From an uncultured Acidobacteriota bacterium (GTDB lineage: Bacteria > Acidobacteriota > Thermoanaerobaculia > Gp7-AA8), in assembly GCA_963741955.1 (NCBI GenBank), contig CAVUKB010000005.1, positions 352,001-416,000 on the forward strand: a stretch of DNA of 64,000 bases, in the 5' to 3' direction. Made by a program: the position numbers and the translations under genes. The notes under the pieces were generated by a model. The model ran no database searches. It saw only the letters and a list, made by a program, of their open reading frames with translations, and was not told where the DNA came from. Of this stretch, positions 9,480 through 24,610 are shown piece after piece. Every line of letters begins with the position of its first letter. Position 1 is the stretch's first letter.

Positions 9480-10283
9480 TTACTTCTTGGCACTCCGCGC
9501 TTTCGCCATCGCGATGGCTTTCGCACGGACCTCGTCCGCCTGCTTGATCAGATCCTGCTGCTTCATCGGATCCGTCTCGACCTGGGCCTGTTGACGCAGC
9601 ATGAGGTTCAAATAGACGAGCGCCTCGAAATATTGCGGTTTGAGCTTGAGAGCCTGGTTCAGCGCACCAAGCCCCTCATCGATGATCTGCGCTTTTTCGG
9701 TCTGGTCGGCCGGGGGGTCCTTGGCGACCTTCTCGTACAAGACGACGCCGTACGTGTAGAACGCCTCCGGATTGTTGGAATCCAGAAGGGTGATCTTCTT
9801 GTACCAGTTCATCGACTCCTTGAAGTCGCCCGTCTTCGCGTAGAGGTTCGCGATGGAGCGAACGGTGTCGATATCCGCCGGGTGCGATGCGAGATATTCC
9901 TTGAAGTAGTCGATCGCCTGCTGGGTGCGATCGGCATTCAGGTAGAGGTTGATCAGCGCTTCGCGCGCCGTGGTGTCGTCGGGCCGCTTCTTCACGTAGC
10001 GCTTGAGCGCCTCGATTCCGCGATCCGCGTATCCCGCATTCTGCGCCGATTCCTCACCCGGCTTGAAAAGCCCGATGTACGAATAGCCGATCAGCCGGTC
10101 GAGATCGGCGAAGCTGGGATCGATCTGCCGGGCTGCCTCGTAATGCTTCAGAGCGTCCGCGTACTGCTCTTTTCCGTAGAACTCGTTCGCCTGACGGATC
10201 TCCACGCGGGCTCGGACGCCGTTGCAGCCCATCAATGAGATGGAAAGAATCAGTGCCGCGAGAAGGCACAATTTCTGCTTCAT
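9480..10283 (-). CDS. TPR-repeat lipoprotein
   Basis: Lipobox-like LMGC; TPR-like helical repeats. Confidence 0.8.
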   Translation of the reverse strand: MKQKLCLLAALILSISLMGCNGVRARVEIRQANEFYGKEQYADALKHYEAARQIDPSFADLDRLIGYSYIGLFKPGEESAQNAGYADRGIEALKRYVKKRPDDTTAREALINLYLNADRTQQAIDYFKEYLASHPADIDTVRSIANLYAKTGDFKESMNWYKKITLLDSNNPEAFYTYGVVLYEKVAKDPPADQTEKAQIIDEGLGALNQALKLKPQYFEALVYLNLMLRQQAQVETDPMKQQDLIKQADEVRAKAIAMAKARSAKK

Positions 10284-18213: not shown

Positions 18214-18299
18214 TGGTGCCCGAGGTGGGATTCGAACCCACACGACCTTGCGGCCGGCGGATTTTGAGTCCGCTGCGTCTGCCGTTCCGCCACTCGGGC
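18214..18299 (-). tRNA. tRNA-Leu(CAA)
   Basis: Acceptor GCCCGAG/CTCGGGC-ACCA, anticodon arm GCGGA-CTCAAAA-TCCGC, long variable arm, GGTTCGAATCC. Confidence 0.97.
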
Positions 18300-20002: not shown

Positions 20003-20794
20003 CTATTTTCCTTTGAAGTTCGCCGGTCGCTTTTCGATGAAAGCGGTCAGCCCCTCTTTCGTATCCTCGGTTGCGCAGAGGACGCCGAACAGCGTCGCTT
20101 CGAGCGACTGCCCGTCTCCGAGAGTCATGTCGCTCCCGTGGTTGATCGCCTCCATCGCGGCGCGAACGGCCACCGGTCCCCGGCTCATGATCTTCTTCGC
20201 CATCTCTTCGGCAGTCGTAAGAAGATCTCCGGCCGGGACGACGCGGTTGACCAGGCCGATCCGTTCGGCCTCGTCGGCCTTGACGCGATCGCCTGTGCAG
20301 ATCAGCTCGAACGCTTTCCCTTTCCCGAGAAGGCGGACCATCCGCTGCGTTCCGCCGTAGCCGGGAATGATGCCGAGCGTGACTTCGGGAAGGCCCATCT
20401 GTGCGTTCTCCGAGGCCAGACGAATGTGGCAGGCGAGCGCGAGCTCGCACCCCCCGCCGAGAGCGAACCCGTTGATGGCGGCGATGACGATCTTGGGAAA
20501 GCGCTCGATCTTCGACAGGATGTGCTGTCCGCGCTCCGAGGTCCGCTTCCCGGAAAGGGCATCGTTCCGTGCGAGTTCGTTGATGTCGGCGCCCGCGACG
20601 AATGCCTTCTCGCCGCTGCCTGTCACGATGACCGAACCGACTCCGTCGTCGAGGAGCGCCTCGTCGAAGACGCGGCCGATCTCTTCGACCGTCTGCGTGT
20701 TGAGCGCATTGAGTACCTGCGGGCGGTTGATGGTGAGATGGAGGATGCGATCCCGGATCTCGACCTTGACGTTCTCGAGCTTCTCGTATGCCAT
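20003..20794 (-). CDS. Enoyl-CoA hydratase (crotonase)
   Basis: AFVAGADI, GGGCELALACH, PEVTLGIIPGYGGTQR. Confidence 0.93.
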   Translation of the reverse strand: MAYEKLENVKVEIRDRILHLTINRPQVLNALNTQTVEEIGRVFDEALLDDGVGSVIVTGSGEKAFVAGADINELARNDALSGKRTSERGQHILSKIERFPKIVIAAINGFALGGGCELALACHIRLASENAQMGLPEVTLGIIPGYGGTQRMVRLLGKGKAFELICTGDRVKADEAERIGLVNRVVPAGDLLTTAEEMAKKIMSRGPVAVRAAMEAINHGSDMTLGDGQSLEATLFGVLCATEDTKEGLTAFIEKRPANFKGK

Positions 20795-20803
20795 CGTCTC
20801 ACC

Positions 20804-21694
20804 TCATTTTTTCGCGCGATCGAACGGAACCGGTGTGCCGCTCGCGTAGTCGTAAAAACCGGCGCCGCTCTTGCGGCCGAAGCGCCCTGCGAGGACCATC
20901 TTCCGGAGCAGCGGCGGCGCAGCGAACCGCTTCTCGTGGTACTCCTCGAACATGACTTTGGTGATGAAGTACGTGGTATCGAGTCCGACGAAATCGAGAA
21001 GAGTGAACGGCCCCATCGGATATCCGCAGCCGAGCTGCATCCCCTTGTCGATGTCTTCGACCGAACCGACTCCCTCCTCGTACGCACGGATCGCGTCGAG
21101 CAGATACGGAACCAGAAGGCGGTTGACGATGAATCCCGAGTTGTCTTTGCAGGACACCGGCTCTTTGCCGAGCGTCTTCGCGAACGTGAAGGCGGAATCG
21201 AACGTCTCGTCGCTGGTGAGGATGGTGCGGACCACCTCGACGAGCTTCATCAGCGGTACGGGATTGAAAAAGTGAAGGCCGACGAACTGACTCGGCCGGG
21301 CTGTCGCCATCGAGAGCTCGGTGATGGTCAACGACGACGTGTTGGAGGCGAAAATCGTCTCCTTCTTGCAGATCCGATCGAGATCCGCGTACACGCTCTT
21401 CTTCAGCTCGGGATTTTCGACCACCGCTTCGATCACGATGTCGCAATCGGCGAGGTCTTCGAGCTTCGTGGTGCCCTTCAGCCGGCCGACGCAGGCATCC
21501 TTCTCCTCGGCGGTCATCTTCCCCTTCTCGACGAATTTCGAGAGGCTCTTTTCGATTCCGGCGAATCCTTTGTCGAGATACGACTGCTCGACTTCTCTGA
21601 CTACGGTCTCCAGCCCGGCCCGGGACGAGATCTGGGCGATTCCCGATCCCATCAGGCCACAACCGAGAACTCCGACTTTGCGAATCTGAGGCAT
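20804..21694 (-). CDS. hbd: 3-hydroxybutyryl-CoA dehydrogenase
   Basis: GCGLMGSGIA, SNTSS, HFFNPVP, GFIVNR, YPMGP. Confidence 0.93.
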   Translation of the reverse strand: MPQIRKVGVLGCGLMGSGIAQISSRAGLETVVREVEQSYLDKGFAGIEKSLSKFVEKGKMTAEEKDACVGRLKGTTKLEDLADCDIVIEAVVENPELKKSVYADLDRICKKETIFASNTSSLTITELSMATARPSQFVGLHFFNPVPLMKLVEVVRTILTSDETFDSAFTFAKTLGKEPVSCKDNSGFIVNRLLVPYLLDAIRAYEEGVGSVEDIDKGMQLGCGYPMGPFTLLDFVGLDTTYFITKVMFEEYHEKRFAAPPLLRKMVLAGRFGRKSGAGFYDYASGTPVPFDRAKK

Positions 21695-21950
21695 TGAACG
21701 GCTCCTTTCGCGAGATGCGGGGCCATTCTATGTGCAGAGCGGATCTTTTCAACTCCGTTCGTTGGAGACTGGGGATCTCGGAGGTCGAGAGTTCGGGGAT
21801 CGGCGATCAGGGGCGGGGGTCGGGGAAGATTGGCTCGGGAGCGTCGAGTCCTTCGGAGATTCGCGGGAAAGCGCAAGCTGCGCAGGGCACTCGAGGGCAC
21901 GCCGATGGGAGCGGATGGTTCCCATCATGGCAGAATAGCGAATCTTGCGT

Positions 21951-23144
21951 ATGAAACGTCCGGCGGTCCTCCGCAACATCGCACCTCAGGTCGTGCTTCT
22001 CGGCCTCGCCGCGCTTCTCAATGACGTTTCGAGCGACATCATCTATCCGCTCCTTCCGATCTTTCTCACCACCACGGTCGGCGCCACTCCGGTGATCCTG
22101 GGGATGATCGAAGGTTCGGCAGAGGCCCTCTCCGCGTTCCTGAAGCTCGGTTCCGGTCTCCTCTCGGATCGTCTTCCCAGACGGAAACCGTTCATCGCCG
22201 GCGGTTACCTCGTGGCCGGACTCTCGCGGGCCCTGATCGCGGTTGCCGCTTTCTGGCCGGCCGTCTTCACCGCACGTCTGCTCGACCGGACGGGGAAAGG
22301 AATCCGCTCGGCTCCACGCGATGCGATGATCTGCGACGTCACACCGGAGTCGGACCGCGGCCGCGCCTTCGGACTGCATCGTGCTTTCGACCACGCCGGA
22401 GCGGTGGTGGGACCACTCCTCGCTGCGCTGATGCTCGGAGTGATTCACCTGAAGATCCGGACCATCTTCTTCCTCGCCGTGATCCCGGCACTTCTCGCGG
22501 TCATACTTCTCGTCTTCTTCCTGAAGGAGACCAGGAGAGTCATCGCATCCCCGACGAGCGGAGCGGTGCCCGGCCGAAGACTTCCGAGCACGTTCTGGAT
22601 CCCGATCGGCTCGATCGCTCTCTTCTATTTCGCAAATTCGAGCGACGTCTTCCTGATCCTGAAGGCTTACGACGCTGGAGTGAGGGAGGCCTGGATCCCG
22701 GTCCTATGGGCGGCACACCATCTGGTCAAGGCGCTCTTCTCCACGCATGCCGGAGCGTGGTCCGACCGGATCGACCGGAGAAACCTCCTCATCGCGGGAT
22801 GGCTGATCTACGCGCTGATCTATTTTCTCTTTCCGATGAGCCGCTCTCTGATCGTCTTCCTGATTCTCTTCGTCGTCTACGCGATTCCGTTCACGCTGAC
22901 GGAAGGAGTCGAACGGGCGTGGATCGGTTCGAAAGTCGAGAAGAGACTTCTCGGGAAGGCATTCGGCGTCTACTACCTGGTGATGGGGATCTTCACGCTG
23001 GGAGGGACCGCCCTTTTCGGCTGGCTCTACGAGCACGTGAATCCTGCCACGGCATTCACGGTCGGAGCGATCACCGCCACGGTCGCGGCGGCATCGGTCG
23101 CCGTGCAGAAAGTGTTTCATCTGGGAGAGAAAGTCTCGGGGTAG
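21951..23144 (+). CDS. MFS transporter
   Basis: GLLSDRLPRRK, DRTGKGIRSAPRDA, GAWSDRIDRR. Confidence 0.92.
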   Translation: MKRPAVLRNIAPQVVLLGLAALLNDVSSDIIYPLLPIFLTTTVGATPVILGMIEGSAEALSAFLKLGSGLLSDRLPRRKPFIAGGYLVAGLSRALIAVAAFWPAVFTARLLDRTGKGIRSAPRDAMICDVTPESDRGRAFGLHRAFDHAGAVVGPLLAALMLGVIHLKIRTIFFLAVIPALLAVILLVFFLKETRRVIASPTSGAVPGRRLPSTFWIPIGSIALFYFANSSDVFLILKAYDAGVREAWIPVLWAAHHLVKALFSTHAGAWSDRIDRRNLLIAGWLIYALIYFLFPMSRSLIVFLILFVVYAIPFTLTEGVERAWIGSKVEKRLLGKAFGVYYLVMGIFTLGGTALFGWLYEHVNPATAFTVGAITATVAAASVAVQKVFHLGEKVSG

Positions 23145-23357
23145 AAAAAAAGCCCGAAGCGGCCTCACCACGCCGGCTCAGGTGCGAACCGGGGTCGATC
23201 CGACGAACTCTTCCGACTCCGGATGCTCTCGCCTCGTCCGGATTTCCGAAAGCCAGGCTTTCGGATCAGCAGCTCGGACGGAACTGTACGGCACGCCCCG
23301 TCACGTGTGAGGAGCCTCGCGTCTCCTCCGTCGAATCTCGAGGGCCACTTCGGGCAG
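23145..23357 (-). ncRNA. Candidate structured non-coding RNA, family unknown
   Basis: 13-bp closing stem 23152-23164/23343-23355, several inner helices, U7 tail, sigma54-type promoter directly upstream. Confidence 0.65.
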
Positions 23358-23367
23358 TTGACCAAGA

Positions 23368-23383
23368 AGCAAATCGCGCGCCA
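23368..23383 (-). promoter_or_regulatory. Sigma54 (-24/-12) promoter
   Basis: TGGCGCGCGATTTGCT versus consensus TGGCACG-N4-TTGCW; GG-N10-GC spacing. Confidence 0.7.
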
Positions 23384-23533
23384 CCGCCGGTCGGGAAACG
23401 CGCGAATCGGGATTCCAGGCTCCGGCTCTCCCCAGGTATCTCCCGACCCGTTCCCTGGCGAGCTCGAAATTCGCGCTCGCCCGAGCGAGTTTCGGCATCA
23501 GAACGACTCGCCGCAGGAAAGGAAAAGCTCCCA

Positions 23534-24610
23534 GTGAAGAAGCTACTCGCATCGATGTCTCTCGCTCTGACCTTCGTGGCTGCGGTAGCGGCCGCCCAGG
23601 CCAAGCCCGCCGCCAATGCCTCGCTCGATCAGCGATTCAAAGAACTTCTTCCGGTCTGCCAGACGGCTCCGAAAATCAGCGTGCATCCTTTCGAAGGAAA
23701 GCTCCCGGACGGGATGAAGGGAGATCTGGTCGACGTTCAGGGCGATTCCGTCTACTGCCAGGGCGAATACATGGCCATCACGACGCGGAGTGGCAGCTAC
23801 TTCCTGGGAGCTCCCTGGCCGATCGAAGGCGTGAGCGGATCGGTCGAACAGAAGATCGCACAGTTCGCCTACGACAGAATGGGAGGCGAGATCTTCTCCG
23901 CCACCGTCGGAAAGACGCCCACTCCCGAGGGTCTCCTTCCGGTCAACCTGGTCCATACCACCGACTATGGCAATGTCCCGATGGAGGCGTGGATCGACCC
24001 GGCCGGCAACATGCTCTTTCTCGCGCCGTTCTACCGTCCGGGAACCGACGCACTCGCGGACAGGATCTCCCGGATCGAAAAGGTCGCTGCACATTCGCCG
24101 ACACTCGGACCGGCCGATGCACCGGTCAGGATCTATGAATTTTCTGATTTCGAATGTCCCTCGTGTAAGCACGCCGATCCGTTCATCCGTCCCCTGATCG
24201 ACAAGTACAAGGGACAGGTGCGCTTCACCCGGATCGACTTCCCGCTCATCTCGAGCCATCCCTGGGCCTTCCCCGCGGCGATGATGGCGCGCGCGATCTT
24301 CCACCAGAGCCCCGATGCCTTCTGGGCCTTCGAGAAAGAGGTCTACGAGAAGCAGGCCGACCTGAACATTTTCGTACTGGAAGACTTCGCGAAGGGATTC
24401 GTCTCCGATCACGGCCTGGACGTCGCGAAGTTCAACCAGGACCGCAACTCCGAGGCCACCAGGAACGAGATCCTCGAAGGGGTGGGACTCGGCTATGCGA
24501 TCCAGCTGGCAGGAACGCCGACGTTCGTCGTCAACGGCAAATTCGTGGTCGCGGGAAAAGAGGGGGACAATCTCGATCGCTACGTGGGAGACCTTCTCGC
24601 GAAGAAGTAA
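23534..24610 (+). CDS. DsbA/thioredoxin-fold exported protein
   Basis: Signal peptide; EFSDFECPSC, FPLISSHPWA, GTPTFVVNG. Confidence 0.88.
   Translation: MKKLLASMSLALTFVAAVAAAQAKPAANASLDQRFKELLPVCQTAPKISVHPFEGKLPDGMKGDLVDVQGDSVYCQGEYMAITTRSGSYFLGAPWPIEGVSGSVEQKIAQFAYDRMGGEIFSATVGKTPTPEGLLPVNLVHTTDYGNVPMEAWIDPAGNMLFLAPFYRPGTDALADRISRIEKVAAHSPTLGPADAPVRIYEFSDFECPSCKHADPFIRPLIDKYKGQVRFTRIDFPLISSHPWAFPAAMMARAIFHQSPDAFWAFEKEVYEKQADLNIFVLEDFAKGFVSDHGLDVAKFNQDRNSEATRNEILEGVGLGYAIQLAGTPTFVVNGKFVVAGKEGDNLDRYVGDLLAKK

What the first reader, a model, noticed from the sequence alone, without database searches (positions are those of the whole stretch)
23145..23494. Stand-alone ~205-nt structured RNA with a sigma54 promoter
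Seen in the sequence, on the minus strand between the MFS and DsbA-like genes: the promoter TGGCGCG-CGAT-TTGCT (23383-23368) predicts +1 near 23357, 2 nt before a 13-bp closing stem (GCCCGAAGUGGCC/GGCCGCUUCGGGC) that is followed immediately by U7. Inside are an 11-bp helix GAUUCGACGGA/UUCGUCGGAUC, side hairpins GAGGAG/CUCCUC and CCGGUUC/GAGCCGG, a GUCCG/CGGAC helix, and a perfect 9-bp apical hairpin UCCGAAAGC-CUG-GCUUUCGGA near the centre. Four positions that are C-A mismatches on the plus strand are G-U pairs on the minus strand, agreeing with the promoter and U-tail orientation. An inverted repeat CGAAATTCGC...GCGAGTTTCG (23465-23494) lies ~110-135 bp upstream, where enhancer-binding sites usually sit. 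There is no credible ORF. Established: sigma54-driven sRNAs exist (GlmY, CrcZ, Qrr, Pxr), but I do not recognise this one. Inference: a new regulatory RNA, possibly a 6S/Ms1-like polymerase decoy or a protein sponge.
Basis: partly seen in the sequence, partly recalled or inferred. Interest (0 to 1): 0.88.

Follow-up and report, generated by a model that had tools for sequence, protein, structure and literature searches.

The report
Conserved structured small RNA beside DsbA-like gene
The folded stretch is real and is an enlarged copy of a previously undescribed small structured RNA shared by a few related soil Acidobacteriota, here apparently placed under a sigma-54 promoter; what it does is still unknown.

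Summary
On the minus strand, 23357 to 23145 folds into a multi-branched RNA closed by a 13-15 bp stem that joins its two ends. A U7 run follows the stem. A sigma-54 -24/-12 match with one mismatch puts the start 2 nt before the stem. There is no AUG, no Rfam match, and only one copy in the genome.

A covariance model built from this sequence alone found shorter relatives (114-128 nt) in four other genomes of three other genera. All sit at the same place, upstream of and divergent from the orthologous DsbA-like gene. The helices keep pairing through compensatory changes: 17 of 41 pairs, 95% of cells paired against about 40% in slid controls.

So this is a conserved RNA family, not a chance fold. 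The window copy carries an extra ~100-nt two-arm insert. It is also the only copy with a sigma-54-type promoter; the relatives have weak sigma-70-like boxes in the same register.

The 6S-like decoy idea is not supported, because a canonical 6S RNA lies elsewhere in the genome. No Hfq, CsrA, ProQ or Ro gene was found. No expression data exist and the function is unknown.

Verdict: a new sRNA family, narrow in range, of moderate interest.

The parts
23145..23357 (-). Whole candidate RNA, about 206-213 nt, from the predicted +1 (23357) to the end of the U7 run
   Evidence: Fold; single copy in the genome; homologs found
23368..23383 (-). Sigma-54-type -24/-12 promoter match, TGGCGCG-CGAT-TTGCT (1 mismatch to the recalled consensus TGGCACG-N4-TTGCW)
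   Evidence: One of 16 genome-wide matches with at most 1 mismatch, and the only one examined that is followed by a structured region plus T-run rather than an ORF
23343..23355 (-). P1, 5' strand of the closing stem (GCCCGAAGUGGCC)
   Evidence: Conserved, with compensatory changes in homologs
23152..23164 (-). P1, 3' strand of the closing stem (GGCCGCUUCGGGC), directly followed by U7
23145..23151 (-). U7 run; with P1 it gives an intrinsic-terminator-like end, 1 nt beyond the stop codon of the convergent MFS gene
   Evidence: G046 has U6 and G001 has UUUUGUCUU at the same place
23197..23337 (-). P2 helix (23337-23329 with 23205-23197), which encloses P3 and the insert
   Evidence: In the 4-row alignment that includes this copy, 5 of 9 pairs have changes on both sides
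23309..23328 (-). P3 hairpin (GAGGAG...CUCCUC). Present in all five members with different sequences
23206..23305 (-). Insert of about 100 nt specific to this genome: two extra arms, including the apical hairpin (23264-23246; 8 bp in the MFE fold). It contains 6 G-U pairs
   Evidence: There are no comparative data for these 38 pairs
23167..23195 (-). P6 hairpin with its outer 3-bp stem; the most sequence-conserved part of the family (CCCCGG...CCRGCG.GG)
23465..23494 (.). Inverted repeat, 10-nt arms with 1 mismatch, centred about 98 bp upstream of the -24 element. Either a candidate enhancer-binding site or part of the DsbA-like leader
   Evidence: only; not conserved in relatives
23534..24610 (+). 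DsbA-like secreted thioredoxin-fold gene; the divergent neighbour in all five genomes
21945..23144 (+). MFS transporter gene, convergent with the RNA (also in G046)

Best explanation
This is a separately transcribed, non-coding, highly structured small RNA on the minus strand. It belongs to a previously undescribed family confined, among the genomes searched, to one subclade of a Thermoanaerobaculia-like family of Acidobacteriota.

Family core (shown):
- a long closing helix P1 that pairs the 5' and 3' ends;
- helix P2, which encloses a variable hairpin P3 and a purine-rich single strand;
- a sequence-conserved hairpin P6.

The window copy adds a two-arm insert of about 100 nt.

Transcription (inferred): it starts at about 23357 from a sigma-54 promoter that needs an enhancer-binding activator, so the RNA level would respond to a signal. 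It stops where P1 closes in front of the U7 run, so the whole RNA body acts as its own terminator hairpin, just before the convergent MFS gene.

Mechanism (inferred, low confidence): the RNA acts in trans. Its conserved P2/junction/P6 core would be the recognition site for a protein or small ligand. No Hfq, CsrA or ProQ gene was found, which argues against chaperone-assisted seed pairing. Its back-to-back placement with the promoter of a secreted DsbA-like oxidoreductase suggests a role in a cell-envelope or oxidative-folding response.
For: Structure:
- 79 pairs, minus strand -103.2 kcal/mol against -90.8 for the plus strand, 9 G-U pairs.

Homology:
- Model R1, built from this sequence alone, hit 3 loci at the syntenic site and in the same orientation (20.9, 20.6 and 17.2 bits; E 6.5e-4 to 5.9e-3 in 135.8 kb, alignments).
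- Model R2, built from the G001 copy, scored G055 57.1, G072 56.6 and G046 37.4 bits.

Covariation:
- Alignment A5 (4 rows): 95.4% of cells paired, 17 of 41 pairs changed on both sides, 0 of 500 shuffles as high, slid controls 38-44% paired.
- Alignment A2, which includes the window copy: 14 pairs with double changes, in P1, P2, P3 and P6.

Descent:
- On a tree of 30 DsbA-like orthologs, the five RNA-bearing genomes plus G005 form one group. The label needs 2 changes; 0 of 500 shuffles are as low. Branches are 0.65-0.89 changes per site. The RNA has therefore survived divergence that erased the rest of the spacer.

Ends:
- U7 here, U6 in G046 and UUUUGUCUU in G001 directly follow P1. The two genomes with a convergent MFS gene have the strongest U-runs.
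- The relatives have -35/-10-like boxes with 17-nt spacing that end 2-4 nt before P1 (read by eye).

Promoter:
- One mismatch to the consensus.
- 13 of the 16 genome-wide matches lie in the 20% of DNA not masked as coding.
- At least 8 of those 13 precede an ORF start within about 150 nt (6 flagged by script, 2 more by eye).
- RpoN and 16 activator genes are present.

Non-coding and non-mobile:
- No AUG.
- One copy in the genome.
- No match in phage or plasmid collections.
Against: - No expression data of any kind. Only DNA runs hold the stretch.
- Fold stability is unremarkable against genome background: 271 of 2894 GC-matched windows are as stable.
- The family is tiny: 5 members, of which G055 and G072 are near-identical. 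The alignments were fitted by the models, which biases pair counts towards the structure.
- Strand evidence in the homologs is weak: 9 G-U against 4 A-C cells, and similar MFE on both strands.
- The sigma-54 promoter is unique to this genome. No homolog has a match with at most 2 mismatches, and the simple sigma-70 scan called nothing in three relatives.
- G072 has no U-run and G055 has only U3.
- A closing stem that encloses about 180 nt is an unusual intrinsic terminator, and the only local hairpin before U7 is weak (6 pairs).
- In 3 of 5 genomes a co-oriented 3-hydroxyacyl-CoA dehydrogenase operon follows 230-440 nt downstream, which would also fit a cis-acting leader.
- Reciprocal model scores for the window copy are low (20.4 bits with R2, 15.8 with R3, both misaligned across the insert).
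- No binding partner or target was identified.
Confidence: 0.6

Rival explanations
1. Cis-acting leader, riboswitch-like or attenuator-like, of the 3-hydroxyacyl-CoA dehydrogenase / enoyl-CoA hydratase operon. In the ancestral arrangement the element sits upstream of and co-oriented with that operon. In this genome and in G046 an MFS gene came to lie between them, leaving the element cut off and terminated.
For: - In G001, G055 and G072 the next gene on the RNA strand is the 3HCDH gene, followed in G055 by an ORF that looks like an enoyl-CoA hydratase by eye (not run against Pfam).
- The same pair lies just beyond the MFS gene in the window (20804-21694 and 20003-20794).
- G055 and G072 have a weak or absent U-run, which would allow read-through.
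- The conserved junction and P6 resemble an aptamer core.
Against: - The distance to the 3HCDH start is 230-440 nt, with no recognisable expression platform.
- The element is retained, with a strong terminator, in the two genomes where it can no longer lead into the operon.
- The constant neighbour in 5 of 5 genomes is the DsbA-like gene, not 3HCDH.
Confidence: 0.15
2. The structure functions on the plus strand, as part of the DsbA-like mRNA: a 5' leader in the relatives, and an MFS-DsbA intercistronic stabiliser or processing element here. On this reading the sigma-54 match and the U-run are coincidental.
For: - The DsbA-like gene is the invariant neighbour.
- MFS and the DsbA-like gene are co-oriented here, in G046 and in G005.
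- Homolog folds are about equally stable on both strands, and 4 A-C cells would be G-U on the other strand.
Against: - In the window copy 9 G-U pairs would become A-C mismatches, and the plus strand folds 12.4 kcal/mol worse.
- U-runs follow P1 only on the minus-sense strand in 3 of 5 members.
- In the four relatives a conserved TGGAATC...GATTGTT box lies between the element and the DsbA-like start. If that box is the DsbA-like promoter, the element is outside that mRNA.
- G005 keeps the MFS-DsbA arrangement without the element.
Confidence: 0.1
3. The RNA is real, but the sigma-54 match is fortuitous. Transcription would start from another, unrecognised promoter, and the inverted repeat at 23465-23494 would belong to the DsbA-like gene.
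For: - The promoter type is not conserved in the family.
- By base composition, tens of matches with at most 1 mismatch would be expected genome-wide (my own estimate; 16 were observed).
- 2 of the 13 non-masked matches look intragenic by eye.
- No activator gene lies in the window.
Against: - Matches with at most 1 mismatch are about 17-fold denser outside the gene mask than inside it (13 in 20% against 3 in 80%).
- The predicted +1 falls 2 nt before P1, in the same register as the promoter-like boxes of the relatives.
- No sigma-70-like site was found in 22800-23800.
Confidence: 0.3
4. There is no RNA function. The element would be a DNA-level palindrome, a remnant of a mobile element, or a chance fold in GC-rich spacer DNA.
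For: - MFE is within the genome background.
- The stems are near-perfect.
- There is no transcript evidence.
Against: - One copy in the genome.
- No phage or plasmid match.
- The element is conserved at one syntenic site across lineages whose DsbA-like proteins are only 42-46% identical to the window's, with compensatory rather than identical stems.
- G-U pairs are tolerated, which a DNA cruciform would not explain.
Confidence: 0.05

Closest known systems
GlmY/GlmZ (enterobacterial sigma-54-dependent sRNAs; GlmY is a protein decoy)
   Same: Stand-alone structured sRNA genes. In some species they are transcribed from sigma-54 promoters with upstream activator sites, and they act partly by binding a protein rather than by seed pairing. 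Source: PMC3045617 and PMC7073468, title and start of abstract only.
   Different: No sequence or Rfam match. Different phylum and different fold: here the two ends pair into one closing stem. No RapZ or GlmS link was examined.
Qrr, CrcZ and Pxr (other sRNAs with sigma-54-type promoters)
   Same: Signal-dependent sRNAs whose transcription needs RpoN plus an enhancer-binding protein. Sources: Qrr1, PMC10162802, title and start of abstract. CrcZ/CbrB, PMC6296734, listing. Pxr, PMC5684412, start of abstract; its sigma-54 dependence is recalled, not read.
   Different: Qrr and CrcZ work with Hfq, and no Hfq gene was found here. Those RNAs are series of stem-loops, not a closed multi-branch junction. 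There is no Rfam match.
6S RNA (RF00013)
   Same: Size of about 200 nt, and the ends pair into a closing stem.
   Different: The genome has a canonical 6S RNA elsewhere (C4:555271-555468, 92.5 bits). This element gives no 6S match even at E up to 10. It is branched, with no central bubble.
Bacterial Y RNA (YrlA/YrlB; recalled to lie in the sigma-54-dependent rsr-rtc operon of Salmonella)
   Same: The ends pair into a long stem, there is a link to sigma-54, and there are internal branched modules.
   Different: No Ro/TROVE gene in the genome, no Rfam match, and no adjacent RtcB, RtcR or Ro gene.
Orphan structured-RNA motifs found by comparative genomics (CMfinder-type candidates)
   Same: A clade-restricted intergenic motif of unknown function, defined by covariation and fixed gene neighbourhood. 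Source: PMC1950547, title and start of abstract.
   Different: Not among Rfam 15 families. Here one member has swapped its promoter type and gained an insert.

Membership tests
Any Rfam 15 family | Covariance-model score at or near the gathering threshold | tested here: not met
   Whole window at gathering thresholds: only one tRNA, at 18217-18299. Region 23000-23650 at E up to 10: four chance-level hits, none over the RNA body. Homolog loci L006, L007 and L023 at E up to 1: one unrelated miRNA-model hit.
6S RNA | Match to RF00013; a rod with a central bubble; usually one per genome | tested here: not met
   A canonical 6S RNA lies elsewhere (92.5 bits). No match at this locus. The fold is multi-branched.
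Sigma-54-dependent promoter | -24 GG and -12 GC with the flanking consensus and exact spacing; RpoN encoded | tested here: met
   TGGCGCG-N4-TTGCT has 1 mismatch. RpoN is at C5:147633-148109. The consensus itself is recalled from the literature, not from a call.
Sigma-54-dependent promoter | A cognate enhancer-binding protein and its upstream binding site | tested here: inconclusive
   There are 16 strong PF00158 matches in the genome, none in the window. An inverted repeat lies about 98 bp upstream of the -24 element, but it is also 40-70 nt from the DsbA-like start and has no counterpart in relatives.
Sigma-54-dependent promoter | RpoN-dependent transcription | not testable with these tools
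   No RNA run holds the stretch.
Intrinsic (Rho-independent) terminator | A GC-rich hairpin directly followed by a U-run | tested here: inconclusive
   U7 directly follows the 13-15 bp stem P1, but P1 encloses about 180 nt. The scan flagged only a weak 6-pair local hairpin.
MITE / dispersed repeat | Many copies; target-site duplications | tested here: not met
   1 match in the own genome. 0 blastn matches in 40 relatives. No phage or plasmid match.
CsrB/RsmZ-type sponge | A CsrA/RsmA partner and repeated GGA loops | tested here: not met
   No CsrA domain in the genome, which is 99.1% complete. GGA motifs were counted by eye only (about 7, close to what composition predicts) and most lie inside stems.
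Hfq- or ProQ-dependent sRNA | The chaperone is encoded | tested here: not met
   No Hfq match and no ProQ match.
Y RNA | A Ro (TROVE) partner and a Ro-binding stem | tested here: not met
   No TROVE match and no Rfam Y-RNA match.
Conserved structured RNA (general criterion) | Homologs with compensatory base changes in the proposed helices | tested here: met
   17 of 41 pairs changed on both sides; 95.4% of cells paired against 38-44% when the partner is slid; 0 of 500 shuffles as high. With the window copy included: 14 pairs. Caveats: 4 rows, two of them near-identical, and the alignments were fitted by the models.

The most novel reading that the evidence does not exclude
A new class of sensor RNA. 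The conserved P2/junction/P6 core would bind a metabolite or protein. The closing helix that joins the two ends doubles as the terminator, so that folding of the whole body decides where transcription ends. The unit is modular enough to have swapped a sigma-70-type promoter for an enhancer-dependent sigma-54 one and to have gained a two-arm insert of about 100 nt in one genus. It would be tied to envelope or oxidative-folding control through its fixed back-to-back pairing with a secreted DsbA-like gene.
Probability: 0.15. Interest if true: 0.7.

Novelty: new member of a known kind. Interest (0 to 1): 0.55.

Why it matters
Almost nothing is known about regulatory RNAs in Acidobacteriota, an abundant and largely uncultured soil phylum. 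Two literature searches listed no paper on RNAs of this class.

This locus gives a concrete, testable RNA family:
- a defined core;
- a fixed gene neighbour, a secreted disulfide oxidoreductase;
- a natural experiment in promoter replacement (sigma-70-like to sigma-54) and domain insertion.

It lies in a genome where no Hfq, CsrA or ProQ gene was found, so whatever it binds would be outside the textbook sRNA partners. The narrow range (5 of 124 family genomes) and the lack of any expression data limit its present weight.

Tried and rejected
- **Rfam.** Searches at gathering and at permissive thresholds found nothing relevant.
- **blastn of the RNA.** It matched only itself in the own genome and nothing in 40 relatives.
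- **Sensitive blastn against 30 DsbA-upstream regions.** Only short chance matches. Sequence search alone misses the homologs.
- **Whole-genome model scans of the family were lossy.**
  - R1 found 0 convincing matches in 123 genomes. The two weak ones (E 0.17 and 0.72) are not syntenic.
  - R2 found 3 true copies plus one doubtful hit. It missed G046 and the window copy.
  - The doubtful hit (G137, 31.2 bits) sits behind a thiolase gene and lacks P2 and P6. I rejected it.
  - R3 on 5 genomes missed the window copy. It gave weak hits matching on both strands in G005:C463 and G046:C71, which I rejected because they lack the P6 consensus.
- **Pattern search for the P2'-P6 motif.**
  - 12 matches in 124 family genomes against 0 for the reversed control.
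  - 5 are the true copies. The other 7 lie mostly in coding-looking sequence, and R2 did not recognise them.
  - In 401 genomes of the class there were many more chance matches. R3 found 0 hits in the 29 loci tested.
- **Public collection scans.**
  - A metagenome scan with the DsbA-like protein gave no close relative (best 42% identity).
  - A genome-contig scan with the apical-hairpin pattern gave 0 hits.
  - A genome-contig scan with the DsbA-like protein gave only the name of the class-level relative, a Thermoanaerobaculia MAG at 40% identity.
- **Sequencing runs.** No RNA holder is listed. One DNA run holds the stretch and may be its source. Read laying was not used, because only contigs of a DNA run were on offer.
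- **Target search.** RNAduplex of the whole RNA against translation-initiation regions was uninformative. The DsbA-like, MFS, 3HCDH and ECH regions ranked at the 66th-94th percentile of 250 random genes, that is, weaker than the median.
- **Comparison with the C4:554885 promoter.** The shared 16-nt core scores 33, against a shuffle maximum of 35, so it is not significant alone.
- **Sigma-70 scans.** The simple scan called no promoter in G055, G001 or G046. The -35/-10 boxes I describe there are read by eye.
- **Small ORF 23365-23165.** Rejected as coding. Its TTG start lies upstream of the predicted start site, it has no ribosome-binding site and no internal start codon, and the five members share no reading frame.
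- **Papers.** I saw only search listings and the starts of abstracts. Supplements were not opened.
Full report
**What is there**

Read on the minus strand, the 388-bp spacer lies between the stop codon of an MFS transporter gene and the start of a DsbA-like gene.
- The MFS gene is 21945-23144, plus strand, Pfam MFS_1 at 6e-40.
- The DsbA-like gene is 23534-24610, plus strand, with a signal peptide and Thioredoxin_4 at 6.4e-21.

From 5' to 3', the spacer holds:
- an inverted repeat (23494-23465);
- a GGAATC-CC-GATTC palindrome (23416-23404);
- the motif TGGCGCG-CGAT-TTGCT (23383-23368);
- ten bases later, a 208-nt stretch whose ends pair;
- a U7 run (23151-23145).

It is on the plus strand, so the RNA and this gene diverge. 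The long minus-strand ORF over it is a spurious high-GC frame.

**Fold**

- Minus strand: -103.2 kcal/mol, z -3.33 against dinucleotide shuffles.
- Plus strand: -90.8 kcal/mol, z -2.36.
- The MFE structure has 79 pairs, 9 of them G-U.
- The RNA has no AUG.
- The one ORF that spans it starts upstream of the predicted start site.

As a caution, 271 of 2894 GC-matched windows from the non-gene-masked part of this genome fold at least as stably. Stability alone proves nothing here.

**Promoter**

The loose pattern TGGC-N8-TGC is at chance level in the window: 4 found, 5.7 expected. The stricter consensus TGGCACG-N4-TTGCW (recalled from the literature) behaves differently.
- With at most one mismatch and fixed GG/GC, it occurs 16 times in 5.44 Mb on both strands.
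- Against a crude gene mask covering 80% of the genome, 13 of the 16 fall in the unmasked 20%.
- At least 8 of those 13 are followed within about 150 nt by a ribosome-binding site and an ORF (six flagged by script, two more by eye).
- Two look intragenic by eye.
- The site at 23383-23368 is the only one followed by a structured, ORF-free stretch and a T-run.
- RpoN is encoded (226 bits), as are 16 strong sigma-54 activator domains, none of them inside the window.

Counting 12 nt from the -12 GC puts +1 at 23357, two bases before the closing stem. I rate sigma-54 control of this copy as likely, at about two in three, but unproven.

**It is not an orphan**

Plain searches found nothing:
- one copy in the own genome;
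- no blastn match in 40 relatives;
- no Rfam family.

The DsbA-like gene has orthologs in 119 of 120 other genomes of the family (this tally includes four unpublished genomes). I scanned 34 loci with covariance model R1, built from the window sequence alone. These were 29 stored ortholog loci of family genomes plus 5 loci from the collection scans.

The three best hits lay in G072, G055 and G001 (20.9, 20.6 and 17.2 bits). Each is 125-240 nt upstream of the DsbA-like gene and on the opposite strand, exactly as in the window (alignments).

A second model, built from the G001 copy, confirmed them at 57.1 and 56.6 bits. It added G046 at 37.4 bits in the same position.

The five members share:
- a closing stem P1;
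- a short extension P1b;
- helix P2;
- hairpin P3;
- a purine-rich single strand (GAARAG...);
- hairpin P6 with an outer 3-bp stem.

P1 is 11 of 11 identical between the window and G055/G072. It differs at two compensated positions in G001 and is entirely different, yet still paired, in G046. P3 has a different sequence in every lineage.

Pair counts:
- On the four short members, 95.4% of cells pair, 17 of 41 pairs show changes on both sides, 0 of 500 shuffles reach this, and slid controls pair at 38-44%.
- On the alignment that includes the window copy, 14 pairs show double changes, spread over P1, P2, P3 and P6.

Caveats: there are few rows, two of them near-identical, and both alignments were fitted by the models.

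The window copy differs by an insert of about 100 nt between P3 and the purine-rich strand (23305-23206; 38 pairs, no comparative data).

**Range and descent**

A pattern for the P2'-P6 core matched 12 times in 124 family genomes, against 0 for the reversed control. Five matches are the true copies. The other seven were not recognised by R2 and look coding. Matches elsewhere in the class are chance-like: 0 of 29 loci were recognised by R3.

On a tree of 30 DsbA-like orthologs the five RNA-bearing genomes plus G005 form one group. The label needs 2 changes, 0 of 500 shuffles are as low, and branches are 0.65-0.89 changes per site. G005, sister to the window genome, keeps the MFS-DsbA order, but its spacer is filled with 7-nt tandem repeats and has no RNA.

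The RNA is therefore old relative to the divergence of these genera, inherited with its neighbour, and lost at least once. The organism is known only by relatives. The best named hit for the DsbA-like protein is a Thermoanaerobaculia MAG at 40% identity.

**Strand and ends**

In the window copy the G-U count and the 12 kcal/mol gap between strands favour the minus strand. In the homologs the evidence is weak: 9 G-U against 4 A-C cells, and equal MFE on both strands.

Independent cues agree with the minus-sense strand:
- U7 (window), U6 (G046) and UUUUGUCUU (G001) directly follow P1.
- The two genomes with a convergent MFS gene behind the RNA have the strongest U-runs. The three where a co-oriented 3HCDH operon follows have weaker ones or none.
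- In the four relatives, -35/-10-like boxes with 17-nt spacing end 2-4 nt before P1. This is read by eye; the simple scan did not call them.
- A conserved TGGAATC...GATTGTT box lies between the RNA and the DsbA-like start in the relatives. If it is the DsbA-like promoter, which is my inference (an ECF-like look, recalled), the element lies outside that mRNA.

**What it is not**

- Not 6S RNA: a canonical one is at C4:555271-555468.
- Not a Y RNA: no Ro gene.
- Not a CsrA sponge or an Hfq/ProQ client: none of these proteins was found in a genome that is 99.1% complete.
- Not mobile.

**Mechanism**

Shown: a conserved fold, a fixed neighbour, a promoter-like site, and a terminator-like end.

Inferred: it is a discrete trans-acting RNA whose conserved junction/P6 core is bound by a protein or ligand. 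In this genus its synthesis has been put under an enhancer-dependent promoter.

[quoted passage not shown] That fits the DsbA-like neighbour but is only suggestive.

A crude duplex search gave no target. No RNA-seq run holds the locus.

**Verdict**

- The RNA-gene interpretation is strengthened by homologs.
- The sigma-54 claim is plausible for this copy only.
- The 6S-like idea is rejected.
- Function is open.

This is a new RNA family of a known kind, narrowly distributed. Interest 0.55.

Noticed in passing
G000:C4:554885-554900 (minus strand), outside the window: A second sigma-54-type site shares 20 of 21 bases of the promoter core with the one at 23383-23368, as read. It also has the same 8-mer, AATTTCGA, 85 nt upstream of the GG (89 nt in the window). 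It precedes a gene that looks NuoB-like by eye, 188 nt downstream, and lies about 370 bp from the canonical 6S RNA gene, divergently. The two promoters may share an activator. The similarity is not significant on its own.
   Followed up: partly
Loci L006, L007, L009 and L023, between the RNA and the DsbA-like start: A conserved box, TGGAATC-N11-14-GATTGTT, lies about 30-60 nt upstream of the DsbA-like start codon in the four relatives. It may be an ECF-type promoter or an operator. The window has a GGAATC-CC-GATTC palindrome instead, at 23416-23404.
   Followed up: partly
Loci L018, L022, L026, L032 and L033, and G000:C5:224357-224372: In several other genera, a small gene (146-165 aa) that looks like a CBS-domain protein by eye sits upstream of the DsbA-like gene and carries its own sigma-54-type promoter. 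In the window genome a similar-looking gene with such a promoter lies elsewhere on contig C5.
   Followed up: partly
L008 (G005), the spacer between the MFS and DsbA-like genes: The spacer syntenic with the RNA locus holds tandem 7-nt repeats, (GCTTCTA)x7 then (GCTAATA)x3, and no RNA.
   Followed up: no
L102 1501-1867 (G046:C71, about 9834-10200): Three palindromic units of about 100 nt, spaced about 133 nt apart, match the RNA model weakly on both strands. They look like an unrelated tandem or REP-like repeat.
   Followed up: no
Window 24444-24458 (minus strand): A further loose TGGC-N8-TGC match (TGGCCTCGGAGTTGC) lies inside the DsbA-like coding region on the opposite strand. It is probably chance.
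   Followed up: no
G000:C6:345454-345469 (minus strand): A sigma-54 consensus match with 1 mismatch is followed by a hairpin-rich stretch, no convincing ORF and a T5 run about 140 nt downstream. This could be another sigma-54-driven small transcript.
   Followed up: no
Window 23543-24412 (minus strand) and 22706-24610 (plus strand): Long ORFs in the mechanical ORF list over this region are artefacts of high GC content. The real gene is 23534-24610 on the plus strand.
   Followed up: yes
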